Program-made: the position numbers and the translations under genes
The notes under the pieces: generated by a model
The model's database searches: none
What the model was told of the DNA's origin: nothing
The model's input: only the letters and a program-made list of their open reading frames with translations
Source: an uncultured Candidatus Saccharibacteria bacterium
GTDB lineage: Bacteria > Patescibacteriota > JAQUNI01
Length of the DNA stretch: 64,000 nt
Reading direction: 5' to 3'
Assembly: GCA_964555185.1 (NCBI GenBank)
Contig: CAZKRD010000001.1
Coordinates: 34,185-98,184 of the forward strand
In this document: positions 7,558 through 53,494 of the stretch, piece by piece
How the letters are laid out: every line of letters begins with the position of its first letter
Numbering within the stretch: the first letter of the stretch is position 1

Positions 7558-7788
7558 TTAAGAGCCGCTTTTCTGCTTCTTTTTCTTTTTCGCTTTCTTT
7601 TTCCTTTCTTTCGCTTCTAGATCTAAAATTGTCCGCCCGCGGTAAACACCGCAAAAAGGACAGGCAATATGAGGAGGAATGCTTTTTTTGCAGCTTGGAC
7701 AGGGCACGAGCGCTGTTCTTTTGATTTTTTTCGCTGTTCTTCGTTTGTTCCGCCGCGCCCGCGTGGTTTTCTTTTTGGGGACAGCCAT
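7558..7788 (-). CDS. rpmF: 50S ribosomal protein L32 with a K-rich tail.
   Basis: MAVPKKKTTRARRNKRRTAKKIK...CPSCKKSIPPHIACPFCGVYRGR matches the L32 consensus including the zinc-ribbon cysteines. Confidence 0.85.
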   Translation of the reverse strand: MAVPKKKTTRARRNKRRTAKKIKRTALVPCPSCKKSIPPHIACPFCGVYRGRTILDLEAKERKKKAKKKKKQKSGS

Positions 7789-7930
7789 AAGAATTTTATT
7801 TAAGAGATTTTACGGTTTTATCGTAGCCCAGATTTGTCAAAATGTCAAAGTAGGATATGAATCTTGAATCTTGAATCATGCCACCAATTCCGAGTGGTCA
7901 CCCAGTAAGGGTGAAATTATGAAATCTGAT

Positions 7931-9601: not shown

Positions 9602-9735
9602 GTTCAAAGTTCAGAATTGAGTTTAAAGTTAAAAGTTGATTAGAGAGTGTTGTTGAGTGTAAAGCGCTGGGGGCTTGTAACTTTAGACTTTGAATTATAA
9701 TTTTTAACTTTGCACTTTGAATTTTTAACTATATC

Positions 9736-16896: not shown

Positions 16897-17160
16897 AGTG
16901 AGGAGAAAGTGAAATTCCTTTTCACTTTATCCGAGCAAGAATTTCAAGCTTGCTTATAATTAGAAGTGAGGAGAAAGTGAAATTCCTTTTCACTTTATCC
17001 GGGATTATTGCAATGGCCCGTAGGGGCGGACCCATGCTCGCCTCGCTGGCGAAGCGGGTGTCCGCCCGTTGTTGGTAAACCAAGAGTAGGGCGACCACTC
17101 ACCTACGCCAAGGCTCTGGCGGGCGGGCACGGGGTCGCCCCTACGAATTGTTACATCCAA
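16897..17160. repeat. Composite family-C repeat: two 47-bp direct repeats (tataattagaagtgaggagaaagtgaaattccttttcactttatccg) followed by a GC-rich hairpin element with CGTAGGGGCG inverted termini.
   Basis: Direct repeats at 16897-16943 and 16965-17011, separated by the palindrome agcaagaatttcaagcttgct. GC-rich body at 17023-17150 ends in ggggtcgcccctacg. Related copies at 13130-13262 and 53190-53345. Confidence 0.7.
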
Positions 17161-23486: not shown

Positions 23487-24704
23487 ATGAACAAGGGTTT
23501 TGCCTTAATATCAGTGATTTTAATCCTAGGAGTACTTTTACTCATCGGTACCGCCTTTTTCACTTTGGTCAGTTTTGAGAATAAGATTTCTTTAAGCCAG
23601 GAATCTACTTTCGGCACCTATTACCTCGCCGAAGCTGGTATCAATGAAGTTATTTACAAATTACGAAATGATTCAGTCTGGCAGGATGAATTTGAAGACG
23701 GTACGATTGACCGCGGCTTCACCAGAACAGATGATTTGGTCGAGAGCGGGTCTTATCAAGTCAGGATAGTTTCTACAGACCCTGGCGAGGCGGACATAGT
23801 ATCAATTGGCAGATTAGACCTTCACGGCTCGATTGCCCAGAGAGTGGTTAAAACCAAGGTGATTAAAGCGGTTAACCCCAATCCCCTAGCTGATATGACT
23901 ACCTACACGGATGAGGATACCAATATCAATTTAAGTTTTGTCACAGTGGAGACCGGTAGTATATTTGCTAACGATGATTTAAATTTGTTTGCCTGGAGCA
24001 GAGCGGATATTTTAAACGGCCAAGCAATGGCGGCTGATCAGATTAATCTCCGCGGCACCTCTACTTTAAATGCTTCTGGCGGCTGCTTCGCGACTAATTG
24101 TCCGTCCGATTGTTCTTCTTGCAATCCCGCTCCGGACCATGTTGCTATGCCAATGCTTGATTTTGATTCGGATGACGAGAATTCCTATAAAAGCAAAGCA
24201 GGAGCGGTTTACACCGAGGCCGAATTTAAGGATCTTTTGGATAATAATAATCCTCTGGTTTTAGATCGCGATGTTACTTATGTCGAGGGCGATGTCAGGA
24301 TTAAGCGGGGGCACTCTCTGATCTTGAGCGGGATTTTGGTGGCGGATGGCAACATCACTTTTGGCGAATGGGCCGGAAGCAGTCATATTGAAATTAATCA
24401 CACACCAGGCAAGGGTTCGGGTTTAATTTCCAAAAACTCCATTGAGTTTATGATGCAGCCCTGGGCTGATGACATTAATATTGAGGGAGTGCTCTATGCG
24501 ATGGATCGGGTCCGGATCAGAGACATAGCCTTTATCGGCAATTTTTCTTTAACCGGCGCGATTGTGGCGCGGGAGCTTACTTTTTTTGATCTTTGGGGCA
24601 ACAGCACTCTTAATTATGATGATGATACCCTAGTCAAAACCCTTTTTGGCCCGCCGGCTGACGCGCCCGTGGTCACAATTGAACATTGGGAGGAAGAATA
24701 CTAG
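23487..24704 (+). CDS. PilX-like minor pilin / pilus tip-associated protein (PilX_N-type N-terminus).
   Basis: MNKGFALISVILILGVLLLIGTAFFTLVSFENKISLSQES matches the PilX N-terminal pattern. Large variable C-terminal domain. Confidence 0.5.
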   Translation: MNKGFALISVILILGVLLLIGTAFFTLVSFENKISLSQESTFGTYYLAEAGINEVIYKLRNDSVWQDEFEDGTIDRGFTRTDDLVESGSYQVRIVSTDPGEADIVSIGRLDLHGSIAQRVVKTKVIKAVNPNPLADMTTYTDEDTNINLSFVTVETGSIFANDDLNLFAWSRADILNGQAMAADQINLRGTSTLNASGGCFATNCPSDCSSCNPAPDHVAMPMLDFDSDDENSYKSKAGAVYTEAEFKDLLDNNNPLVLDRDVTYVEGDVRIKRGHSLILSGILVADGNITFGEWAGSSHIEINHTPGKGSGLISKNSIEFMMQPWADDINIEGVLYAMDRVRIRDIAFIGNFSLTGAIVARELTFFDLWGNSTLNYDDDTLVKTLFGPPADAPVVTIEHWEEEY

Positions 24705-24853
24705 GTTAATTTTCAATTTTCAAGTACCAATGTACTAATCAATTTTCAATTTTCAAGTATCAATTTTCAATAACCAATGACTAAATGTTCAAACTGTTTG
24801 AAAATTAAATCTATTCGAACCTTCGGATTTGATTGAAAATTGAGATTTGAAAA
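24705..24853. repeat. Family A intergenic repeat (caattttcaa... aatgttcaaactgtttgaaaattaaatctattcgaa...), copy 1.
   Basis: Near-identical to 29395-29530 and 44407-44550, and in inverted orientation to 42171-42310. Contains the palindrome TTCAAAC-T-GTTTGAA. Confidence 0.75.
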
Positions 24854-25912
24854 TTGAAAATTATATTTATGCGTGCTTTCGGTCTGGATTTATCAGACGC
24901 CAGTTTAAAATTAATTGAATTGAAGAAAGAAGGACAAAACATTGAATTGGCCAATTTTTGTGACTTGCCGCTTGCCGAAGGGGTGATTGTCAAAGGGAGG
25001 ATCGTGAAAGAAGATTTGTTAGCAACCTCGATTAAGGAAGTTTTAAAAAAAGCGCAAAAAGGAAAAGTTAAGAACCGGTTTGTTGTCTCTTGCGTACCTG
25101 AATCTGAATCATTTGTCCGGATTATTAGTCTCCCCAACCTGCCCGAGGAGGAGCTTCCCCAGGGCGTGCGCTGGGAATTTGAACAGCATATCCCTCTTTC
25201 CTTGAACCAGGTTTATTTAGATTGGCAGAAAATTGAATCAGAAGAGGAGGAAACCAAGGTTTTAGTTATCGCTTCGCCTAAGAAGCTGATTGATGCTTAT
25301 ACCAGCGCCCTGAAAAGAGGCGGCTTGATCCCCTGGGCTGTCGAGGCGGAATCAGCCGCCACTGCCCGCAGTTTAATCAAGGAGGGAGATCCGGCTTGTT
25401 TTTTGCTGGTGGATATTGGTTTTAGCCGGACCGGCCTAATTATTTATGATCATGAGACACTGCAGTTTACTTCTGCGGTTGAACCCTTTGGCCAGTCTTT
25501 TACCGATAAATTAACCGAAGATTTAAAAGTGGGCCTGAAAGAGGCAGAGAGCCTCAAGAGAACCTATGGTTTAAGCAGCAGGAAGAAGGGGCCTTCGGAG
25601 AAGGTTCACAAATCCCTCTTGCCCCTGGTTCAATTTTTGGCCAAAGAAATTAGAATCGCGCTCAAGTTTTACTCGGAGCATTTTCCCAGAGGTCAAGCGG
25701 TCAAAAAGATTGTCTTATCCGGCGGCGGATCTAAACTGAAAGGCCTAGTACCTGAACTGAAAGCGATCCTGAAAGCGGACGTTACTTTGGGCAACCCTTG
25801 GGTTAATATTCTGGATCCAGACCATAGATATCTGCCCGAGATCAGCCGTAAGGACTCCTTAAGCTACGCGACAGCGATCGGCTTGGCCTTGCGGGGTGTG
25901 GAAGGAGTGTAA
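24854..25912 (+). CDS. pilM: Type IV pilus assembly protein PilM (actin-like ATPase).
   Basis: FGLDLSDASLKLIELKKEG...VDIGFSRTGLIIY...LSGGGSKLKGL. Alternative start at M6 (24869). Confidence 0.8.
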   Translation: MKIIFMRAFGLDLSDASLKLIELKKEGQNIELANFCDLPLAEGVIVKGRIVKEDLLATSIKEVLKKAQKGKVKNRFVVSCVPESESFVRIISLPNLPEEELPQGVRWEFEQHIPLSLNQVYLDWQKIESEEEETKVLVIASPKKLIDAYTSALKRGGLIPWAVEAESAATARSLIKEGDPACFLLVDIGFSRTGLIIYDHETLQFTSAVEPFGQSFTDKLTEDLKVGLKEAESLKRTYGLSSRKKGPSEKVHKSLLPLVQFLAKEIRIALKFYSEHFPRGQAVKKIVLSGGGSKLKGLVPELKAILKADVTLGNPWVNILDPDHRYLPEISRKDSLSYATAIGLALRGVEGV

Positions 25913-29339: not shown

Positions 29340-29640
29340 TTTTCAATTTTTAATGGTTCGACTATACTCACCACCTTGAGCTTGCCGAAGGGTTTACTAA
29401 TCAATTTTCAATTTTCAAGTACCAATTTTCAATCAATTTTCAATAACCAATGACTAAATGTTCAAACTGTTTGAAAATTAAATCTATTTGAAAATTGGGA
29501 TTTGATTGAACATTGGTCCTTGTAAATTGGTAATTCAAACAATATTTTCAAGTACCAATGGTTCGACTATGCTTACCACCCTGCTTACCATCCTGAGCTT
29601 GCCGAAGGGTTTTTAAACAATTTCCAATGTTTTAATGTTT
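29340..29640. repeat. Family A repeat, largest copy: a full A unit (29395-29530) flanked by two ggttcgactat...gagcttgccgaagggttt sub-units (29353-29395 and 29562-29615).
   Basis: Direct sequence identity with 24705-24853 and 44407-44555, and with 42171-42367 in reverse. Confidence 0.75.
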
Positions 29641-38835: not shown

Positions 38836-39303
38836 CTAGAGAAAAAAGAGATCTTGAGCGCAGTAAAGGGCCGGATTTGCCAGGAATTTAAAAGCATGAA
38901 TAACTACTAGAACTTCAGCCGTCAGACAGATGCCTCCCAGTAGGCCTGTGGGAAATTCGTCTTCCAGTTGATACATCATAGTGAAGAAGGCGAAAGCATA
39001 AGCAGCCATTATCACAATAAATATCCACCCTTCACCTAAGAGATAAAGAAAGTGGATAGAGAGCGCAACCAGTAGTATGTAGAGCGGGCTTAAACAAATT
39101 TTGACCCAGGGCAGAAAATGGCCGATGACAAAGCTCAATCCTATACCACCGAGGGTGAAAATAAGTAGAAAGTTCGCTGTCATAACAAAGCTATAGCGGA
39201 GAGACAATGAAAAGAGCAGACCAAGGCCCAAAGCTGTGATAACAGCAGTAGAAATCACGAATTGCTTCTCGCCTGCTTCCATCCAGTATTCTGAATCTCT
39301 CAT
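38836..39303 (-). CDS. Hypothetical small membrane protein (4 TM).
   Basis: Start at the internal M (MRDSEYWMEAGEKQ...). Hydrophobic. Follows a similar membrane-protein gene. Confidence 0.45.
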   Translation of the reverse strand: MRDSEYWMEAGEKQFVISTAVITALGLGLLFSLSLRYSFVMTANFLLIFTLGGIGLSFVIGHFLPWVKICLSPLYILLVALSIHFLYLLGEGWIFIVIMAAYAFAFFTMMYQLEDEFPTGLLGGICLTAEVLVVIHAFKFLANPALYCAQDLFFL

Positions 39304-39329
39304 CTTCAGTCTCCTTTCAGAATTTTTGG

Positions 39330-39782
39330 TCAGGATATTCGTTTTACCGCCTCTATAATAAGAACGATCAACAAAAACTCGATCCCAACCCCAAATAACC
39401 ATCTGGCTTTTAATGGACTGTCAGGTCCGAGGTAGTAGGTGGGGGAATAGATAGTCAGGAACATGCCACCTAATAAGCAGATTAGGGCCACGCCATCCAG
39501 GACATCTGGCCAGGGCGAAAGGCGGCAGCCAATGATCATAATACAACCACAGGCTAAGATGAAAGCTCCCAAAAAAGTCAGGGCCTTTCTGGAAAATAGA
39601 GAGGCAACCACGGAAACCACGATAGCACCAAGAGTCGTGAAGAGGGCAGCATAGATACAATTCTCCAGTGTGAGAACTTTGGTTATTAAAGGAACAAAGA
39701 ATGTGCCTAGCGCTACAATGGTAGCTAGGCCCGTAGCGATCAGGACTATGTTGTTATCTAATCTTTGCTTTAATCCAGCCAT
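39330..39782 (-). CDS. Hypothetical small membrane protein (4 TM).
   Basis: 150 aa and hydrophobic. Confidence 0.45.
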   Translation of the reverse strand: MAGLKQRLDNNIVLIATGLATIVALGTFFVPLITKVLTLENCIYAALFTTLGAIVVSVVASLFSRKALTFLGAFILACGCIMIIGCRLSPWPDVLDGVALICLLGGMFLTIYSPTYYLGPDSPLKARWLFGVGIEFLLIVLIIEAVKRIS

Positions 39783-41830: not shown

Positions 41831-42170
41831 TTTGATCTAAGAGTTTATTGATCCTTTCTGCTTTTTCTTGAGAAGTGTCAACACTAAAGTGAAGTTTGGG
41901 GATCTTTCTTAAATGGAGGCGGGAACTAAGGAGGGATTGTAGCTTAATCTTATTTCTTTGTAAAGTTTTCACAATTAAGCTTCTTTTATCTTCAGGTAGA
42001 ACCGAAATCCAAATGCGAGCTTGGGACAGATCTCGAGAAGTGACAACTCGAATTATGGTCGTAAGAGTATTAGGCGGCAGATCGATTTCTGTCAAAATCG
42101 CATTTGCCAGTTCCTTTTTAATCAGGCTGTTAAGTTTTGCAATACGGTAGGACATGGGGTTAATTTTCAA
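41811..42170 (-). CDS. rbfA: Ribosome-binding factor A.
   Basis: RIAKLNSLIKKELANAILTEI...TIIRVVTSRDLSQARIWISVL. Downstream of infB, as in the canonical operon. Confidence 0.8.
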   Translation of the reverse strand: MKINPMSYRIAKLNSLIKKELANAILTEIDLPPNTLTTIIRVVTSRDLSQARIWISVLPEDKRSLIVKTLQRNKIKLQSLLSSRLHLRKIPKLHFSVDTSQEKAERINKLLDQNVKKRP

Positions 42171-42367
42171 TTTTCAAATCTCAATTTTCAATCAAATCCG
42201 AAGGTTCAATGATTTAATTTTCAAACAGTTTGAACATTTCATCATTGGTTATTGGAAATTGATTAGTAAATTGGTACTTGAAAATTGAAAATTGATTGTA
42301 AACCCTTCGGCAAGGTCCAAGCGGTGAGCATAGTCGAACCATTGAAAATCGTCAATTGAAAATTTCC
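42171..42367. repeat. Family A repeat, inverted copy, with an adjacent ggttcgactatgctcaccgcttgg...gccgaagggttt sub-unit.
   Basis: Reverse complement matches 29395-29615. Confidence 0.7.
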
Positions 42368-44406: not shown

Positions 44407-44555
44407 GGGAGGGGGTTAATTTTCAATTTTCAAGTACCAATTTTCAATCAATTTTCAATAACCAATGACTAAATGTTCAAACTGTTTGAAAATTAAATCT
44501 ATTCGAAAATTGGGATTTGATTGTAAATTGAAAATTGTAAATTGAAAAATTTTCT
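44407..44555. repeat. Family A repeat, copy 4.
   Basis: Identical core to 24705-24853. Confidence 0.75.
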
Positions 44556-45962: not shown

Positions 45963-46418
45963 CTACCCCCTTTTGTTAATTGCTTCTAATTCTTCTTTGG
46001 TTAGTTGATATTTCGATTGACCGCCGAAAACAGGCTTGGCATAGATGCGGTCGCCTGTGCTACTGTGGAGATTAGATATTACCACGCCGCTTTTATGTCG
46101 ATCAAGAAGAGCGATTGAAAAGCTTTGATCTCCGCCCTCGTCGGCAAAAGGATTAAACCGGACAATGTTGACCTTCTGGACAGTGAAGTCTAATTTTTCT
46201 TCTAGTTTTTTTACCGAATCTTTTAGGGCTCGAATTTTATCTTGAACTGTTTTTAAGTTCTTGTTTTGGGAATTCAAAATTTCCTCCAGATTGCTCCCCT
46301 GCGCTTGGCCTAAGAGCTCTTTGTTTGCCCGGTGGGTTTTATAAAGCGTATAATGCAGGTAAGAAACCCAAGCCAAAAGGACAACTGTGATTCCAACCAG
46401 GATCAAGGTAAAAATCAT
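45963..46418 (-). CDS. DUF4446-like membrane-anchored protein.
   Basis: N-terminal TM helix followed by ...VNIVRFNPFADEGGDQSFSIALLDRHKSGVVISNLHSSTGDRIYAKPV. Family assignment from memory. Confidence 0.4.
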   Translation of the reverse strand: MIFTLILVGITVVLLAWVSYLHYTLYKTHRANKELLGQAQGSNLEEILNSQNKNLKTVQDKIRALKDSVKKLEEKLDFTVQKVNIVRFNPFADEGGDQSFSIALLDRHKSGVVISNLHSSTGDRIYAKPVFGGQSKYQLTKEELEAINKRG

Positions 46419-46576
46419 TTAAAGGATTTGAGTTCATTAGATAATTCATTATATCCTTTGTTTGGCCTGTTTGTCAATTTTGGTTTGTTTGACATTTAGA
46501 GTGATTTGTGATATGTTTAGAAGCTGTGAAGTTTGGTAATGTTTGGAATATAGGTAACCAGGAGGAGGTGTGATTG

Positions 46577-47005
46577 ATGAGAAGAATAGTATCTGCTGTT
46601 GGTGTTCTACTCTGCTGCTGGATTGTTCTTAGTTGTGATTGCCCCAGTCCTGTTGTTGGCAATCCAAGGGGCCATAGATTTGAATTTATCAACAAGACCT
46701 ATGGCGTTGGAGCTATTAATGTTCACGTTATTGCTATGGGTGATGGCAAAAGTTTCTGGATACGCGGGTTGAAATATGGCTATATGGATAGTGTAGAAGT
46801 TCAGGCCGATCTCTTTGAGACTTATGATATAATTTACATTATCCCGGCATACCAGAATGGCCATCAATGGTTTGAACTTCGCCACTATGACTGGGATAAT
46901 TATATTGTTCCTGAGAGTGGTGAGTATGGGATCATCGAAATGATCAGCCCAGAAGGTGTCAATAGGTATGATTGGGAGGAATGGACAGAGATTGATCCTC
47001 CTTAG
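46577..47005 (+). CDS. Small secreted lipoprotein, hypothetical.
   Basis: Signal peptide with a lipobox-like LSC (MRRIVSAVGVLLCCWIVLSC|D). RBS aggagg is present. The G+T-rich codon usage is atypical for this window. Confidence 0.5.
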   Translation: MRRIVSAVGVLLCCWIVLSCDCPSPVVGNPRGHRFEFINKTYGVGAINVHVIAMGDGKSFWIRGLKYGYMDSVEVQADLFETYDIIYIIPAYQNGHQWFELRHYDWDNYIVPESGEYGIIEMISPEGVNRYDWEEWTEIDPP

Positions 47006-47089
47006 GCGCTAGCCAGATTGGTTAGCGTTTTTTTATTTTGAATAAAAAGTATGTTATAATGATTTTGTGCAACCAGTATCTAATAATTT

Positions 47090-47446
47090 ATGAGCAGTAA
47101 AAATCATTTTAAAAAACACAAAAGCCGCAAGTTCCGCAAGGCCAAAATAAAATCCCCTCAAAAGAATTATTGGGAGGGTGTGGCCAGTGATCCGGAAGAG
47201 AAAGGTGAACTTGATCGAGTTCCCGAAAGACAGAAACAAAACAGAGAGAAGATTATTAAAGCCCCCCTGTCCAAAGAAGAGCCAGAGGCAAAGACAGAAA
47301 ACAAAGATATTGCTTCAGATTGCAAAAAGGTCTTGACAACTTTTTTGGGGTTTGCTATACTATTATTAGTACTGTGGATAATTAAAATCAAAACTTCTCT
47401 TTTCGATATCGCAGTAGATTACTTTTACAAAATTTTTGCTCTTTGA
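47090..47446 (+). CDS. Hypothetical basic protein with a C-terminal TM anchor.
   Basis: 118 aa with a K-rich N-terminus and a C-terminal hydrophobic helix. Confidence 0.35.
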   Translation: MSSKNHFKKHKSRKFRKAKIKSPQKNYWEGVASDPEEKGELDRVPERQKQNREKIIKAPLSKEEPEAKTENKDIASDCKKVLTTFLGFAILLLVLWIIKIKTSLFDIAVDYFYKIFAL

Positions 47447-48332
47447 TCTTTGAGTGATAATTAGAGTGTCACTCAAACCCTAAAAACAAAAAAGAAAAAA
47501 ACAAAAAGACACGGACGAGTAATGGAAGATAAAACAAAAAGAAAAACAAAAATTATAAAAAACAATTTGCATTTATCCTATTAGGTGTTTGACTTAATAG
47601 GAGGAAGGGCCCTTCCAAGGTTTCGTTTTATGACTGGGCATTTTAGGGGCTAATGGTCGGAAGTTTTTTGTTTATCCAGAATATTTTTTGATTTTAAATA
47701 ATTTAGCCAGTAATCGTAATTTTCCTGTTTCAGGTTCAACCTGAACTGTCACCCCTTGGAATAACCACCCCTTGGAATAATTGAGTCCCCTCTTCTTCAT
47801 TTAAATAATTAAACGTTCTGGGTAAATCATTTTTTGGTTTCAGTTGGTCTTTATTAATCTTGATGTTTTCAAGTTGATCAGGGAATATATTTTTTATTTT
47901 TAAGCCTCCTATAAAATTAAAAATAAAGACACTCCTGATTGGTTAATGCAAATCTCGTTCGGTTTGCAACTCGCCTCAAATTTTGGGTCAATTTCGAGTT
48001 GTCGTGAAATTTGAAAACTGTTTCAGTATTTTTGTGAGGAGATTTTATTTTTTTACTTGTTTGTCGCGAGAAGAAAAAGAATTCTTAAATCCACTATTTT
48101 TATTTACTCGCCGCTCACTGTTAAGACCATGGGTCTTGCCGTGTGATCCCACCGTGAATTCGGAAATACCCTCTGTCCGGTAGGCAGGCTTTGATCGTCC
48201 CTCGACAAGCTCTGGACTCGCTCGTAATGACATTTTGTGAGTTTCCAGATTCACGGATTCCACTTTTGACAATTCATTTGTTTTTTGTTTTTATTTTCAA
48301 GAACCCCTTTAGAACAATTGAGGTAATGGATG

Positions 48333-49757: not shown

Positions 49758-49845
49758 GCCAGCAATTTACAAGCAATGGAGTTTTATAATATACTGAATA
49801 CAAACAAACTTTAAACTTTGCACTTTGAATTTTGAACTGAATCCC

Positions 49846-49919
49846 GCCCCTGTAGCTCAGCTGGATAGAGCAGCGCACTCCTAACGCGCAGGTCACACGT
49901 TCGAATCGTGTCAGGGGCA
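49846..49919 (+). tRNA. tRNA-Arg(CCT), no encoded CCA.
   Basis: GCCCCTGTAGCTCAGCTGGATAGAGCAGCGCACTCCTAACGCGCAGGTCACACGTTCGAATCGTGTCAGGGGCA. Anticodon loop CTCCTAA, with one A:C mismatch in the anticodon stem. Confidence 0.7.
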
Positions 49920-50071
49920 CAAGGTACATAATCTAGATTTTTTATTTGGGTTTTGATATAATAATTACAAAACAAAAAGCCAAATCTGAATCAGGAGGGA
50001 TTTGGCTTTGTTTGGTCCTTTTCAAACTTACTTATCTAATCCTGTAACTGGCAACACAAGGAGGAATGGTT

Positions 50072-51556
50072 ATGATTGAGCGATATACAGACGGGAAGAT
50101 TGTTGAAATCTGGTCCGATTCACACAAACTGTCTCTTTGGCAAAAGACAGAACTGGCAGTGATTGAGGCGATGGCCAATTTGGGGCGGATTGAAAGAGGG
50201 GTCTACAGCCGCATCCGTGAGGCCTTGGATGGTAATCCCATAGATATAGAATGGTGGAAACAAAGAGATCAAGAAATTCATCATGATCTTAATGCTTTCC
50301 TTGATGAGCGTGCGCGTTTCTTGGGCGCTGATCTAGAGCAATATTGGCATCAGGGACTCACTTCTTATGATACAGAAGAGCCTGCTTTTGCCAGAATGCT
50401 TCGATCATCACTGCACAGGGTCGAAGCCCATTACGGCAATTTAGTAGAAGCTTTAAAAGAGAAGGCGTGGCAGTATCGTTATGTGATTATGATCGGTCGC
50501 ACCCATGGCCAGGCCGCTCAATTGCAAAGCGCTGGCAAGAGGTTCTTGTGCTGGCTTCAAGATCTTGCTGTAGATGAGGTGAGTTTATTGAAAGCAGGGA
50601 GGAACCTCAAATATTCTAAACTCTCTGGCGCAATTGGCAATTATGGAGGCCTTGATCCTGATTTAGAGAAAGAGGCTTTGCGTGTCTTAGGATTCGAGCC
50701 TTTCTATGGTGCAACTCAAATTATGCCTCGTGAGATGTGCGCACCTTTGGCTCAAGTGCTTTGCCAGCTGGTTTGTACTTTAGACAAAATTGCAGTTGCA
50801 ATACGGTTAGGCGCGAGAAGTCCGCATCCGATCTATCAGGAGCCGTTTGGCCAAAAACACAAAGGCTCTTCTGTTATGCCTCAGAAGAAGAACCCGATCC
50901 GTAGCGAGCAAGTTGAAGGTATGGCTAATATGGCTAAGGCGTATTTGCGGATGATCATGGATAACATCCGCACCTGGGAAGAAAGAGCAATTGAACAGTC
51001 TTGCGTAGAAAGGGTTGCTTGGCCTGATCTTTTCCATATTGTTGTCCATGTGCTCAAAAGAATGGAAAAGGTGCTTCAGGGCTTAGTGATTTATCCTGAC
51101 AATATGCTCTGGGAGATCCATGAAAGCCGAGGATGTTATGCTTCTTCCGAGGCCAAGGAGTTTCTGAAGCGAGAGGGAGTAGAATATGGTCTTAGCGCTG
51201 AAGACGCCTACCGGATTGTGCAGCTTGCTGCTTTTATTGCTTTCGAACCAGGTGATCGTTTGCGAGATTTGCGCACAGACCTGCCTATTTCTCTAGTGGA
51301 AGCAGACCATCTACTTTTAGCTTTCCCGCAGATGCCCAAATCCCCTGATGTTTCTCTATGTTATATTATCAGGGAGGGCCTCTTGAGTATTTCAGAAGAG
51401 CTTGCCGCCACAGAGGAGGAAATAAAAAGGTGGGTAGAGATTTTAGAGAAGATTTTCACTGAACAGGAAAAACGTGATGATTGGAATCGGCTTTTTTTGC
51501 CCTCTTATCTCTTGCGTAATGAGGAAAAACTCTACCAAGAGATTTTGAGTCTATAA
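50072..51556 (+). CDS. purB: Adenylosuccinate lyase.
   Basis: Fumarate-lyase signature GSSVMPQKKNP and a PurB-like N-terminus ERYTDGKIVEIWSD. RBS aaggagg at 7 nt. Confidence 0.8.
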   Translation: MIERYTDGKIVEIWSDSHKLSLWQKTELAVIEAMANLGRIERGVYSRIREALDGNPIDIEWWKQRDQEIHHDLNAFLDERARFLGADLEQYWHQGLTSYDTEEPAFARMLRSSLHRVEAHYGNLVEALKEKAWQYRYVIMIGRTHGQAAQLQSAGKRFLCWLQDLAVDEVSLLKAGRNLKYSKLSGAIGNYGGLDPDLEKEALRVLGFEPFYGATQIMPREMCAPLAQVLCQLVCTLDKIAVAIRLGARSPHPIYQEPFGQKHKGSSVMPQKKNPIRSEQVEGMANMAKAYLRMIMDNIRTWEERAIEQSCVERVAWPDLFHIVVHVLKRMEKVLQGLVIYPDNMLWEIHESRGCYASSEAKEFLKREGVEYGLSAEDAYRIVQLAAFIAFEPGDRLRDLRTDLPISLVEADHLLLAFPQMPKSPDVSLCYIIREGLLSISEELAATEEEIKRWVEILEKIFTEQEKRDDWNRLFLPSYLLRNEEKLYQEILSL

Positions 51557-51573
51557 TTAAGGAGGAATGGATT

Positions 51574-52086
51574 ATGGCTAAAGTTGCGGTTGTTGTAGGT
51601 AGTAAGAGTGACCTTGAGATAGTAAAAGAGTCTGGAATGTTAGAGGTGTTTAACGAAATGGGCGTGCCTATAGAGGTATCGATCATTTCCGCGCACCGTA
51701 ACCCAGATACACTACCGAACTATTGCCAGAAGGTTCTTAAGAGAAATGATGGCCGGGTGATTTTCATTGCCATTGCTGGAATGGCTGCTGCCCTGGCAGG
51801 CGCGATTGCCGCCCATGCCCGGAAAACGTCAGTGATTGGCGTACCTTTGCCTTCCCGAGAAAAACCAGAAGCGGAAGATGCTTTGTACGCTATGCTTCAA
51901 ATGCCCAAAGATGTTCCGGTGGCTGTGCCTGGAATAGGGAAGTCTGGATTATACAAGGCCGCCATCTTGGCTTGCCAGATTTTGGCCCTGACGGATTCAG
52001 ACTATTGGCTCGCACTAGATGGTTTTATTAAAGATCATCATAAAGAGCCCCAGATTGATATTTCGTTATCAGAAGAGGAGGAGTGA
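51574..52086 (+). CDS. purE: Phosphoribosylaminoimidazole carboxylase catalytic subunit / N5-CAIR mutase.
   Basis: MAKVAVVVGSKSDLEIVKE...SAHRNPD...GMAAALAG is the PurE fold signature. RBS aaggagg. Confidence 0.85.
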   Translation: MAKVAVVVGSKSDLEIVKESGMLEVFNEMGVPIEVSIISAHRNPDTLPNYCQKVLKRNDGRVIFIAIAGMAAALAGAIAAHARKTSVIGVPLPSREKPEAEDALYAMLQMPKDVPVAVPGIGKSGLYKAAILACQILALTDSDYWLALDGFIKDHHKEPQIDISLSEEEE

Positions 52087-52089
52087 ACA

Positions 52090-53115
52090 ATGGGAGCAAA
52101 GATTCCAGAAGCAATTCAGGAAACAGCGTTAAGCCGTAAGCTTGCTGCTGCCGGTCTTAATCGAGTTTATCAAGGTAAGGTCCGGGATACTTGTGCCGTA
52201 CCAAGTAATGACAAACTTCTACTGGTTGTTGCTTCAGGTCGTTTGAGTATTTTTGACTTTGTGTTGAATTGCCAGGTGAAAGATAAAGGTCAAATCTTGA
52301 CTGCTCTAACCATCTTCTGGCTGACCACTGTATTGAAAGATACAATACATCACTTGATCGCTTTCGGTGCAGGCATTGATGCGTATTTACCTCCTGACTT
52401 GAGAGGAAATCCAGAGTTGCAAGCCAGAGCCGTGGTGGTCAGAAAACTTGAGATAATATCAGTTGAATGCGTGGTCAGAGGTTGTCTTACGGGTTCGGGT
52501 TGGCGATCCTATCGAATGGATGGCACTGTTTGTGGTCAGAGCTTGCCACCTGGTTTGCATGATGGATCAAGACTAGATAAGCCTATTTTTACACCAACGA
52601 GCAAGGCAGTATTTGGTCATGATCAGCCCATGACTAGGGAGCAGGTAAGGCAGAGACATACAGAAGAGCTAGAAGATTTTAGTTTGGCATACTATAACAC
52701 AGCACGTAGTTATGCTGAAGAACACGATGTCATCATCGCTGATACTAAATTTGAGTTTGGCCGTTTAGACGACGGATCACTCTCTGTTCTTGCTGATGAG
52801 GTAATTACCCCTGATTCATCGCGTTTCTGGGACCGAGAAGAATGGGAAATAGCCCAAAAAGAACAGAGAGCACCTCAAGGTTATGATAAAGAGCCTGTGC
52901 GTCAAGAGGGCAAGGGAGTTGAAACGCCTTTTTCCGGTTTAACTGGTATTCATAGTCTTGATGCGCAGGATGAAGAGCATATCATATTTGTACATCAATG
53001 GAGGGTTCCAAAAGAGGTTCTTTCCGCCACTAGAAAACGTTACCGCACGATCTTTGAACGTTTAACTGGGAGGTCTCTTGAAAGCTTCCAGAGAGATGTG
53101 ATGCACATTGGCTAG
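52090..53115 (+). CDS. purC: Phosphoribosylaminoimidazole-succinocarboxamide (SAICAR) synthase, long form.
   Basis: YQGKVRDTCAV...LLLVVASGRLSIFDFVL...IADTKFEFG are PurC motifs. Confidence 0.8.
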   Translation: MGAKIPEAIQETALSRKLAAAGLNRVYQGKVRDTCAVPSNDKLLLVVASGRLSIFDFVLNCQVKDKGQILTALTIFWLTTVLKDTIHHLIAFGAGIDAYLPPDLRGNPELQARAVVVRKLEIISVECVVRGCLTGSGWRSYRMDGTVCGQSLPPGLHDGSRLDKPIFTPTSKAVFGHDQPMTREQVRQRHTEELEDFSLAYYNTARSYAEEHDVIIADTKFEFGRLDDGSLSVLADEVITPDSSRFWDREEWEIAQKEQRAPQGYDKEPVRQEGKGVETPFSGLTGIHSLDAQDEEHIIFVHQWRVPKEVLSATRKRYRTIFERLTGRSLESFQRDVMHIG

Positions 53116-53189
53116 ATATCGCCACAGAGCATTTTAGACACACATAGGCACCAATTTATCTTTGAACGGTGCCTTTTTTATAATTCGCA

Positions 53190-53345
53190 GTGAGCCTGCC
53201 TGCCGGTAGGCAGGGTAGGCAGGGAGAAAGTGAAATTCCTTTTCACTTTATTCGGGATTATTGTCATTACCCGTAGGGGCAACCCTTGTGGTTGCCCGTC
53301 TGTGGCATTTGTTTAGCCGACAATGGGCAACCACAAGGGTTGCCC
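53190..53345. repeat. Family C element, copy 3: cctgcc/ggcagg hairpin, agaaagtgaaattccttttcacttt hairpin, then a 25-bp perfect inverted repeat (gtaggggcaacccttgtggttgccc) around a 27-nt loop.
   Basis: The perfect inverted repeat is visible directly at 53268-53344. Confidence 0.7.
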
Positions 53346-53494
53346 CTACAAAACCGTCCCAGACTAGGTGATATTATTGGCGCATTTAAATCAATGACAA
53401 CCTGTAGTTACATCCAAAATTAAGAATTTCGAGCTTGCTTGATTTGTCTGAATTTTGCTATATTTAAAGAATGAGAATAAGATACTAGAAACAA

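What the first reader, a model, noticed from the sequence alone, without database searches (positions are those of the whole stretch)
49846..53345. Isolated purB-purE-purC module (AIR to AICAR) flanked by tRNA-Arg and a family-C repeat: candidate acquired island
The three genes encode consecutive de novo purine steps (PurE, PurC, PurB) and are tightly packed with strong aaggagg RBSs. The rest of the pathway is absent from the window. tRNA-Arg(CCT) and a hairpin terminator lie upstream; a family-C repeat lies directly downstream. Reduced CPR-like genomes usually lack de novo purine synthesis, so a three-step module bounded by a tRNA and a repeat suggests horizontal acquisition or a salvage-like partial pathway.
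Basis: partly seen in the sequence, partly recalled or inferred. Interest (0 to 1): 0.65.

Follow-up and report, generated by a model that had tools for sequence, protein, structure and literature searches.

The report
Acquired purB-purE-purC purine operon
A small-genome Patescibacteria (CPR) bacterium carries an intact three-gene operon for three middle steps of purine synthesis, and its DNA composition, codon use and ribosome-binding sites mark it as a foreign insert next to a tRNA gene; this is a clear but fairly ordinary case of gene transfer, and whether the rest of the pathway exists in the genome could not be checked.

Summary
Downstream of tRNA-Arg(CCT) lies a tight purB-purE-purC operon (50072-53115). 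It has three strong Shine-Dalgarno sites and its own terminator, followed by a dispersed host repeat. No other pur gene is in the 64-kb window.

The three-gene block is the sharpest compositional outlier in the window:
- Dinucleotide distance is 150, against 57±23 for comparable segments.
- Codon-usage chi-square is 132, against 25-66 for same-strand controls.
- The edges fall at about 49.8 kb and about 53.2 kb.

The host genome is almost free of Shine-Dalgarno sites (41 of 57 genes have none), yet all three pur genes carry AAGGAGG-type sites. Related pur cassettes in other Patescibacteria vary in content (purBECH, purBEH, purEC). They sit in different contexts, are also atypical against their flanks, and usually adjoin a tRNA gene.

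There is no integrase, no att-like direct repeat and no phage or plasmid relative. PurB and PurE are closest to Patescibacteria proteins; PurC falls in a mixed clade.

Verdict: a laterally acquired metabolic cassette, probably exchanged within the radiation, not a classical tRNA island. I could not test whether the pathway is truncated, because only 9% of the 707-kb scaffold was readable. Interest is moderate.

The parts
49797..49839 (+). Host-type intergenic repeat (AACTTTGCACTTTGAATTTTGAACT family) directly upstream of tRNA-Arg. It marks the tRNA as part of the native backbone.
   Evidence: Family D5 has copies at 9689, 20574, 29216, 40839 and 49797.
49846..49920 (+). tRNA-Arg(CCT), the left boundary of the compositional island.
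   Evidence: ARAGORN; Rfam RF00005 at 63.6 bits. The 1-kb composition profile rises directly downstream of it.
49954..49962 (+). Candidate extended -10 promoter element TGATATAAT for the pur operon. This is inferred only.
   Evidence: Read from the sequence. The sigma-70 scan did not list it because there is no -35 match. Low confidence.
49976..50023 (+). 12-bp hairpin followed by a U-rich tail. It is either the terminator of the tRNA transcript or a leader hairpin of the pur operon.
   Evidence: Fold energy -19.7 kcal/mol, z = -3.35. No Rfam riboswitch hit. The leader is not conserved in relatives.
50072..51556 (+). purB: adenylosuccinate/SAICAR lyase of the long Patescibacteria type (494 aa). 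Ribosome-binding site AAGGAGG at 50058-50064.
   Evidence: PF00206 E=1.5e-34; TIGR00928 299.7 bits, below its cutoff of 326.2. Best PDB match is Thermotoga maritima ASL 1c3u at 204.8 bits. The HHDLNAF, GRTHGQ and GSSVMPQKKNP motifs are kept. 64% identity to L008 and 46-55% to Paceibacterota and Giovannonibacteria proteins.
51574..52086 (+). purE: class-I-like N5-CAIR mutase (170 aa). Ribosome-binding site AAGGAGG at 51559-51565.
   Evidence: PF00731 E=6.5e-39; TIGR01162 122.4 bits, below its cutoff of 149.6. E. coli class I PurE scores 89.5 bits; class II PurE from T. denticola scores 27.3 and human PAICS 20.7. GSKSD and SAHR are kept; the 70s loop reads AGMAAALAG, with His replaced by Ala.
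52090..53115 (+). purC: SAICAR synthetase of the long type (341 aa). Ribosome-binding site GAGGAGGAG at 52075-52083.
   Evidence: PF01259 E=8.1e-55; NF010568 271.3 bits, above its cutoff of 251. PDB 3r9r scores 170.7 bits. Closest relatives are 57-61% identical.
53146..53180 (+). Intrinsic terminator of the pur operon (AGGCACC...GGTGCCT followed by T6).
   Evidence: Sequence; fold energy -16.5 kcal/mol, z = -3.13.
53194..53349 (.). Composite dispersed repeat. It consists of a GC hairpin (53194-53220), a shared module at 53223-53280, and a perfect 25-nt inverted repeat at 53273-53297 / 53325-53349. This is a host element, not a cassette end.
   Evidence: Family D8 has copies at 16902, 16970 and 53223; inverted repeat I24. 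Exact motif matches. Fold energy -64.9 kcal/mol, z = -9.9. Independent contigs break at 53223.

Best explanation
This is a functional three-gene operon, purB-purE-purC, with one ribosome-binding site per gene and one terminator. It encodes three consecutive purine steps: (N5-)CAIR formation from AIR by a class-I-type PurE, CAIR to SAICAR by PurC, and SAICAR to AICAR by PurB. PurB can also convert adenylosuccinate to AMP.

The operon is a laterally acquired metabolic cassette that sits just downstream of a native tRNA-Arg(CCT) gene in a small Patescibacteria genome that hardly uses Shine-Dalgarno sites. It belongs to a loose set of small pur cassettes (purB, purE, purC and purH in various combinations) that are patchily spread among Patescibacteria, usually next to tRNA genes. 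The donor was therefore probably another member of the radiation or an unsampled lineage.

Shown here: gene identities, operon anatomy, the compositional, codon-usage and Shine-Dalgarno discontinuity, and the patchy, variable contexts in relatives.

Inferred: the transfer itself and its direction; PurE working without PurK by using spontaneously formed N5-CAIR at high CO2; and the supply of AIR and the conversion of AICAR to IMP by genes elsewhere in the genome.
For: Gene identity and intact catalytic motifs.

Composition:
- Karlin delta* (x1000) is 150, against 57±23 for all 3-kb windows; none of 122 is larger. TETRA correlation is 0.28, against 0.55±0.10.
- In the 1-kb profile the signal rises at about 49.8 kb and falls at 53.0-53.3 kb. 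rho(CG) is about 0.7 inside and about 1.0 outside.
- Synonymous codon chi-square against same-strand genes is 131.9 (41 df), against 25-66 for 22 control blocks.
- When the Pur proteins are recoded with host codon usage, delta* is 106±10, against 151 observed. Every native block shows observed ≤ recoded.

Shine-Dalgarno sites:
- 41 of 57 called genes have none. All three pur genes have a 6-7-nt site (Fisher p=0.0012).
- Strong-site genes are the compositional outliers of the window (Mann-Whitney p=3.8e-5).
- The same contrast (pur genes with strong sites, housekeeping neighbours without) holds in L005, L008 and L092.

Patchiness and variable content:
- L005-L007 carry purB-E-C-H, L008 purB-E-H plus a phosphoribosyltransferase, L015 purH-B-E-C, L092 purE-C, L091 purE alone, and L011, L012 and L014 purB alone.
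- The L005 cassette is also a codon-usage outlier (131.9 against 39-54), but in the opposite GC3 direction. This argues against a bias intrinsic to the genes.

tRNA adjacency: a tRNA gene lies within 800 nt of the cassette in 5 of the 6 PurE-containing loci, and it is a different tRNA in each. Random placement gives p=0.10 per locus, so the chance of at least 5 of 6 is about 6e-5. The 800-nt threshold was chosen after seeing the data.

Mosaic history: PurC is 57-61% identical to a clade that includes Doudnabacteria and large non-CPR genomes, but only 38-42% identical to the PurC of the other cassettes.

Not an assembly artefact: two independent assemblies confirm the linkage to the left-hand host genes.
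Against: - No integrase, transposase or att-like repeat is present.
- No relative on phages, plasmids or viral contigs.
- No close donor exists. The best PurB match is 64% identical, and PurE reaches at most 60% identity among 1.84 billion cluster representatives. The transfer therefore cannot be dated or given a direction.
- L005 shares neighbours with the window (a YegS/DAGK-like gene, bactofilin and RNase HII). This could mean the locus is ancestral. However, the cassette lies on the opposite side of RNase HII in the two genomes.
- Strong ribosome-binding sites could reflect selective use for particular genes rather than foreign origin.
- Only 64 kb of 707 kb served as the compositional reference.
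Confidence: 0.6

Rival explanations
1. The operon is vertically inherited. It would be an old Patescibacteria purB-purE-purC(-purH) cluster kept in a few lineages and lost in most. Its odd composition and strong ribosome-binding sites would then reflect gene-specific selection, such as expression level or translational needs, rather than transfer.
For: - The closest PurB and PurE relatives are all Patescibacteria.
- Gene order purB-purE-purC is shared with L005-L007.
- The neighbourhood is partly shared with L005: a YegS/DAGK-like gene, bactofilin and RNase HII.
- Pur protein identities (40-64%) are in line with those of housekeeping proteins between these distant genomes: ClpP 69%, RNase Y 51%, trigger factor 34-38%.
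- No mobility genes are present.
Against: - The synonymous-site and codon-context deviation is not explained by the protein sequences.
- The deviation runs in opposite GC3 directions in the window and in L005.
- Genes expected to be highly expressed in the window (rpsP, HU, IF2, NusA, trigger factor) lack strong ribosome-binding sites, so selection for high expression is an unlikely cause.
- The cassette lies on opposite sides of RNase HII in the two genomes.
- PurC's nearest relatives differ from those of PurE and PurB.
Confidence: 0.28
2. The pathway is truncated and works as a salvage route. The genome would lack purF/D/N/L/M, and the cassette (with a purH elsewhere) would turn an imported imidazole intermediate, such as AIR riboside after phosphorylation, into AICAR and IMP. 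Purine synthesis would then be split between host and episymbiont. This concerns function and is compatible with either origin.
For: - No upper-pathway gene lies in the 64-kb window, nor within ±10 kb of any of the Patescibacteria pur loci inspected.
- Most Patescibacteria lack de novo nucleotide synthesis: 93% in bioRxiv 10.64898/2026.06.21.733656.
- Relatives extend the cassette only downstream, with purH and a phosphoribosyltransferase.
- From my own knowledge: AIR-riboside kinase salvage is known in Salmonella (stm4066).
Against: - Pur genes in these genomes are scattered (purH stands alone in L093 and L094), so their absence nearby says little.
- One survey found complete PRPP-to-IMP modules in 32% of 399 CPR genomes (PMC11608272).
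- No transporter or kinase gene sits in or next to the cassette.
- 91% of the scaffold is unread.
Confidence: 0.25
3. The block is an assembly or binning chimera, in which a pur block from another organism was joined into the scaffold at the repeat.
For: - The block is compositionally foreign.
- Independent contigs stop at the repeat at 53223, so the right junction is supported only by the scaffold.
Against: - Two independent assemblies from other runs join the pur genes, at 100% identity, to the tRNA, Wzy, bactofilin and YegS genes on the left.
- The same arrangement is recorded in both the ENA and NCBI copies.
Confidence: 0.02

Closest known systems
Gram-positive-type pur operon (Bacillus subtilis purEKBCSQLFMNHD)
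   Same: The same three enzymes are encoded side by side and co-transcribed. Firmicute and actinobacterial loci fetched here show purE-purB-purC adjacency followed later by purH (L047, L057, L080, L084).
   Different: The order here is purB-purE-purC. There is no purK, and no purS/Q/L/F/M/N/H/D follows. No purine or ZTP riboswitch and no PurR-type leader was detected. Sequence identity to those PurB proteins is only 30-35%.
Patescibacteria purB-purE-purC-purH cluster (Hainich groundwater MAG GCA_964358205.1, loci L005-L007) and purB-purE-purH cluster (GCA_030616605.1, locus L008)
   Same: Same long PurB type, same PurE clade (70s loop AGMAAAL), same gene order, strong ribosome-binding sites, atypical composition against the flanks, and a tRNA gene at one end.
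   Different: The window's cassette lacks purH. Its PurC is only 40% identical to the L005 PurC and belongs to a different subclade. Protein identities are only 48-64%.
tRNA-associated genomic islands
   Same: The block lies directly downstream of a tRNA 3' end, has a sharp compositional discontinuity, carries accessory metabolic cargo and is patchily distributed.
   Different: There is no integrase, no duplicated tRNA 3' segment or att repeat, and it is only 3 kb long.
PurK-less class I PurE systems (methanogens and some other archaea)
   Same: A class-I-like PurE with no purK nearby. The published explanation is non-enzymatic N5-CAIR formation at high CO2 (PMC3261824).
   Different: This is a bacterial Patescibacteria protein. 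The non-catalytic 70s-loop His is replaced by Ala. [quoted passage not shown]

Membership tests
Adenylosuccinate lyase PurB (TIGR00928; fumarase/aspartase superfamily) | Lyase_1 fold with the SSxMPxKxN signature loop | tested here: met
   PF00206 E=1.5e-34. GSSVMPQKKNP aligns to GSSAMPHKKNP of T. maritima ASL.
Adenylosuccinate lyase PurB (TIGR00928; fumarase/aspartase superfamily) | Catalytic His residues (T. maritima His68 and His141 equivalents) and the TS(x)D motif | tested here: met
   HHDLNAF, GRTHGQ and TSYD align with NHDVVAF, GRTHGV and TSSD of 1c3u. The residue roles come from my own knowledge.
Adenylosuccinate lyase PurB (TIGR00928; fumarase/aspartase superfamily) | Score above the curated equivalog cutoff | tested here: not met
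   299.7 bits against a cutoff of 326.2. The next-best family scores far lower, at 122 bits.
Adenylosuccinate lyase PurB (TIGR00928; fumarase/aspartase superfamily) | Canonical C-terminal ADSL_C domain | tested here: inconclusive
   No PF10397 hit. The alignment to ASL structures stops at residue 388-420. The last roughly 100 residues are conserved only among the long Patescibacteria PurBs. No structure model could be made with an alignment.
Class I PurE, N5-CAIR mutase (TIGR01162) | AIRC fold, GSxSD loop and SAHR 40s loop (catalytic His, class I Arg) | tested here: met
   PF00731 E=6.5e-39. GSKSD and SAHR are invariant in the alignment with E. coli PurE.
Class I PurE, N5-CAIR mutase (TIGR01162) | Closer to class I than to class II (AIR carboxylase) proteins | tested here: met
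   E. coli 89.5 bits and Coxiella 92.8 bits, against T. denticola class II 27.3 bits and human PAICS 20.7 bits.
Class I PurE, N5-CAIR mutase (TIGR01162) | 70s loop AGGAAHLPG with His75 (E. coli numbering) | tested here: not met
   The loop reads AGMAAALAG. The same Ala occurs in most Patescibacteria, PVC and Omnitrophota relatives. From memory, this His is not essential in Acetobacter aceti PurE.
Class I PurE, N5-CAIR mutase (TIGR01162) | Score above the curated cutoff, and a partner PurK | tested here: not met
   122.4 bits against a cutoff of 149.6. No ATP-grasp or PurK gene lies in the window or beside any related cassette. The whole genome was not searched.
SAICAR synthetase PurC (NF010568 / PF01259) | Full-length match above the curated cutoff | tested here: met
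   271.3 bits against a cutoff of 251, over residues 19-329. PDB 3r9r and 6yvq score 170.7 bits.
tRNA-integrated genomic island | Insertion at the 3' side of a tRNA gene, with atypical composition | tested here: met
   purB starts 151 nt after tRNA-Arg. delta* is 150 against 57±23, with sharp edges.
tRNA-integrated genomic island | Integrase or recombinase gene | tested here: not met
   None among the called genes from 41.5 to 62 kb. The small atypical ORFs have no Pfam or PHROG hits.
tRNA-integrated genomic island | Direct repeat of the tRNA 3' end at the far boundary | tested here: not met
   No tRNA-derived match of 11 nt or more between 40000 and 58000. No flanking direct repeats.
Complete de novo purine pathway | purF, D, N/T, L, M (K) and H in the same genome | not testable with these tools
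   Only 64 kb of the 706,972-bp scaffold could be read. A PurH search listed no protein from that scaffold among its best 120 of 2,675 hits, which is inconclusive.

The most novel reading that the evidence does not exclude
The cassette is one of a family of mobile 'lower purine pathway' modules (purB, purE, purC and purH in varying sets) that move between Patescibacteria genomes and land beside tRNA genes. In this 0.7-Mb genome, which would lack the PRPP-to-AIR half of the pathway, it completes purine synthesis from an imidazole intermediate obtained from the host. That would be a biosynthetic pathway split between host and episymbiont.
Probability: 0.15. Interest if true: 0.75.

Novelty: new member of a known kind. 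Interest (0 to 1): 0.4.

Why it matters
Patescibacteria are usually described as nucleotide auxotrophs. A recent preprint already notes that nucleotide-synthesis genes have a scattered distribution in the phylum.

This locus gives a concrete, well-bounded example of how such genes may arrive. A 3-kb operon still carries a foreign codon and dinucleotide signature and foreign-style ribosome-binding sites in a host that hardly uses them.

If the remaining pur genes are missing from the genome, it would also be a candidate for a purine pathway shared between symbiont and host. If they are present, it is an ordinary, laterally patched biosynthetic pathway.

Tried and rejected
- PurH elsewhere in the genome: I searched with the L005 PurH and looked for hits on a 706,972-bp contig. 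None appeared in the best 120 of 2,675 hits. This is inconclusive, not evidence of absence.
- Phage or plasmid origin: there were no relatives on IMG/VR viral contigs for PurB or PurC. The only plasmid match was to the tRNA. Phage PurBs are at most 32% identical. Rejected.
- Regulatory RNA upstream of purB: there is no Rfam riboswitch and no conserved leader among seven long-PurB loci. Rejected.
- att-type repeats: no tRNA-derived repeat and no flanking direct repeat. Rejected.
- Link between tRNA-Arg(CCT) and AGG codon use in the pur genes: AGG makes up 15% of Arg codons in the pur genes and 16-18% in the host. Rejected.
- First codon-usage comparison: it was confounded by strand bias. T3/(T3+C3) differs between strands. 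I redid it against same-strand genes.
- Metagenome scan with a PurE alignment: it returned only generic PurE loci at 49% identity or less, none with the long PurB. Uninformative.
- Literature search for the sample and MAG identifiers: it found only a marine-microbiome survey.
- Structure prediction of the PurB C-terminal extension: not attempted, because the homologues available came from loci and could not be submitted as an alignment.

Full report
**What is there**

The window is part of a 706,972-bp scaffold of an uncultured small-genome bacterium. Its genes are typical Patescibacteria housekeeping genes. They include type IV pilus genes, FtsH, GyrA, IF2, NusA, trigger factor and an H+-pyrophosphatase, and there is no other pur gene.

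At 49846-49920 lies tRNA-Arg(CCT), preceded by a host-type intergenic repeat (family D5). A 12-bp hairpin follows at 49976-50009.

Three same-strand genes come next:
- purB, 50072-51556
- purE, 51574-52086
- purC, 52090-53115

They are separated by 17 and 3 nt, and each has an AAGGAGG-type ribosome-binding site. A canonical terminator (53146-53180) closes the unit.

The 'family-C repeat' (53194-53349) has a second copy at 16902-17150, between unrelated genes. Two independent short-read assemblies are identical to the window up to 53223, the first base of the repeat, and both end there. The repeat is therefore a dispersed host element. The left junction of the pur block is independently confirmed.

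**Are they real pur genes?**

All three match the expected Pfam families. PurC passes its NCBIfam cutoff. PurB and PurE fall a little below theirs, with no competing family close.

PurB aligns over residues 1-388 with Thermotoga adenylosuccinate lyase and keeps the catalytic His positions and the GSSxMPxKKNP loop. Its last roughly 100 residues are conserved only among a long (494-496 aa) PurB type. In the GTDB species-representative genomes scanned, that type turned up only in Paceibacterota and Giovannonibacteria MAGs and one short contig labelled Gammaproteobacteria, at 46-55% identity. The next hits drop to 40% or less.

PurE scores as class I: E. coli PurE gives 89.5 bits and class II proteins give 21-27 bits. 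It keeps GSKSD and SAHR but has Ala in place of the 70s-loop His, as do most of its relatives.

No purK is nearby. PurK-less class I PurE is known from archaea and is explained by spontaneous N5-CAIR formation at high CO2 (PMC3261824).

An exhaustive search of 1.84 billion cluster representatives found only 20 PurE relatives at E≤1e-30, and none above 60% identity.

**Is it foreign?**

GC content alone is unremarkable, but several other measures single the block out.

- The block has the largest dinucleotide distance of all 3-kb segments: delta* of 150 against 57±23, with none of 122 larger. It also has nearly the lowest tetranucleotide correlation.
- In a 1-kb profile the anomaly begins at about 49.8 kb and ends at 53.0-53.3 kb.
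- A first codon comparison was confounded by strand bias. Against same-strand genes the pur block gives chi-square 131.9, whereas 22 control blocks give 25-66. The pur genes avoid GCG, CCG, CGC, CGG and ACC.
- Recoding the Pur proteins with host codon usage gives delta* of 106±10, against 151 observed. Every native block shows the reverse relation. So the signal lies partly at synonymous and codon-context level, not only in protein composition.

The ribosome-binding sites add independent evidence. 41 of 57 called genes have no Shine-Dalgarno motif at all, including rpsP, IF2 and trigger factor. Only seven genes have a motif of 6 nt or more, and three of those are the pur genes (Fisher p=0.0012). 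Strong-site genes are the compositional outliers of the window (Mann-Whitney p=3.8e-5). The ORF pair at 38836-39782 even shares the pur block's dinucleotide signature (delta* of 77 between them).

**Relatives**

PurE's nearest relatives (46-58% identity) are labelled Patescibacteria or Parcubacteria. Their contexts differ:
- RNase HII followed by purB-purE-purC-purH in Hainich groundwater MAGs (L005-L007)
- purB-purE-purH plus a phosphoribosyltransferase (L008)
- purH-purB-purE-purC (L015)
- purE-purC (L092) and purE alone (L091)

The long PurB stands alone in L011, L012 and L014, where it presumably serves IMP-to-AMP conversion. PurH often stands alone as well.

The L005 and L008 cassettes are also dinucleotide outliers against their flanks. 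The L005 cassette is a codon-usage outlier too, but in the opposite GC3 direction. Pur genes in L005, L008 and L092 carry strong ribosome-binding sites while neighbouring housekeeping genes do not.

A tRNA gene lies within 800 nt of the cassette in five of the six PurE-containing loci, and it is a different tRNA each time. The chance expectation is about 0.10 per locus, giving about 6e-5 for at least 5 of 6. The threshold was chosen after seeing the data.

PurC tells a different story from PurB and PurE. Its best matches (57-61%) include Doudnabacteria, a Myxococcales-labelled MAG, a 5.98-Mb genome and a contig where purC is followed by a large purL. It is only 38-42% identical to the PurC of the other cassettes. 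The cassettes therefore look mosaic.

**Evidence against a simple island**

No integrase or transposase is present, there is no att-like repeat, and there is no phage, plasmid or viral relative.

L005 shares a YegS/DAGK-like gene, bactofilin and RNase HII near its cassette, which hints at an old shared locus. The cassette lies upstream of RNase HII in the window and downstream of it in L005.

Pur protein identities to other Patescibacteria are no higher than expected from housekeeping proteins, so nothing points to a recent, identifiable donor.

**Function and open question**

The operon should convert AIR (via N5-CAIR) to AICAR, and PurB can also make AMP from adenylosuccinate. It needs an AIR source upstream and PurH downstream, and neither is in the window.

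The literature is divided on how common complete pathways are in this radiation. One study reports that 93% of genomes lack de novo nucleotide synthesis, with scattered gene distributions (bioRxiv 10.64898/2026.06.21.733656). Another reports 32% of 399 CPR MAGs with a complete PRPP-to-IMP module (PMC11608272).

I could not read the other 91% of the scaffold. My one indirect test for PurH was inconclusive. The 'partial pathway' reading is therefore neither supported nor refuted.

**Verdict**

It sits beside a tRNA gene but lacks the machinery of a classical island.

It is a new member of known kinds (pur operons and transferred metabolic cassettes). Interest is moderate. The contrast in Shine-Dalgarno sites and the recurrent tRNA adjacency are the most useful new leads.

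Noticed in passing
whole window; strong sites upstream of the genes at 7688-7867, 38836-39303, 39330-39782, 46577-47005 and the three pur genes: The genome is almost free of Shine-Dalgarno sites: 41 of 57 called genes have no motif, including rpsP, IF2, trigger factor and FtsH. The few genes with a motif of 6 nt or more are mostly compositional outliers of unknown function (no Pfam or PHROG hits). They look like a class of acquired accessory genes.
   Followed up: partly
window 38836-39782 (- strand) and 46000-47500: There are two further compositionally atypical patches (rho(CG) 0.4-0.6). The ORF pair at 38836-39782 has a dinucleotide signature close to that of the pur block (delta* of 77), which hints at a shared donor pool.
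   Followed up: partly
window 16902-17150 and 53194-53349: A composite dispersed repeat: a conserved module GGAGAAAGTGAAATTCCTTTTCACTTTAT...CCCGTAGGGGC followed by long GC-rich palindromes (fold energy -65 kcal/mol at 53273-53349). Short-read assemblies break exactly at its first base (53223).
   Followed up: partly
window 24704-24863, 29346-29535, 42156-42349, 44412-44550; also 9689, 20574, 29216, 40839, 49797: Two families of AT-rich intergenic repeats: AATTTTCAATTTTCAAGTACCAAT-type and AACTTTGCACTTTGAATTTTGAACT-type. The second family ends a few bases before start codons or tRNA genes, so it may be a promoter or leader element of this genome.
   Followed up: no
proteins P0314, P0319, P0324, P0325, P0326, P0332, P0343, P0346, P0348 (relatives of the window's PurC): Patescibacteria, including a Buchananbacteria MAG, encode fused PurC-PurE proteins of about 485-497 aa. 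The domain order matches animal PAICS, but the PurE domain carries an SCHR motif in place of SAHR.
   Followed up: partly
L008 13192-15893: Downstream of the purB-purE-purH-phosphoribosyltransferase cluster lie five tandem small ORFs (111-179 aa, no Pfam hit). Their upstream regions are nearly identical (acaataataaaggag...), so this looks like a paralogous gene array.
   Followed up: no
window 1-20524 versus L009: The ENA copy of the scaffold differs from the window by 18 substitutions in this stretch, while 19646-62086 is 100% identical. There are two versions of the assembly, or local strain variation.
   Followed up: no
window 47447-48332: An 890-nt AT-rich stretch (GC about 0.34-0.35) with no called gene and no Rfam match, between a small K-rich ORF and the Wzy_C gene.
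   Followed up: no
PurB residues about 395-494 (window 51254-51553): The long Patescibacteria PurB type has a conserved C-terminal extension (…RW.E.L.KIF…WN.LF.PSYLLRNE…). It has no Pfam ADSL_C hit and is not covered by alignments to solved ASL structures.
   Followed up: partly
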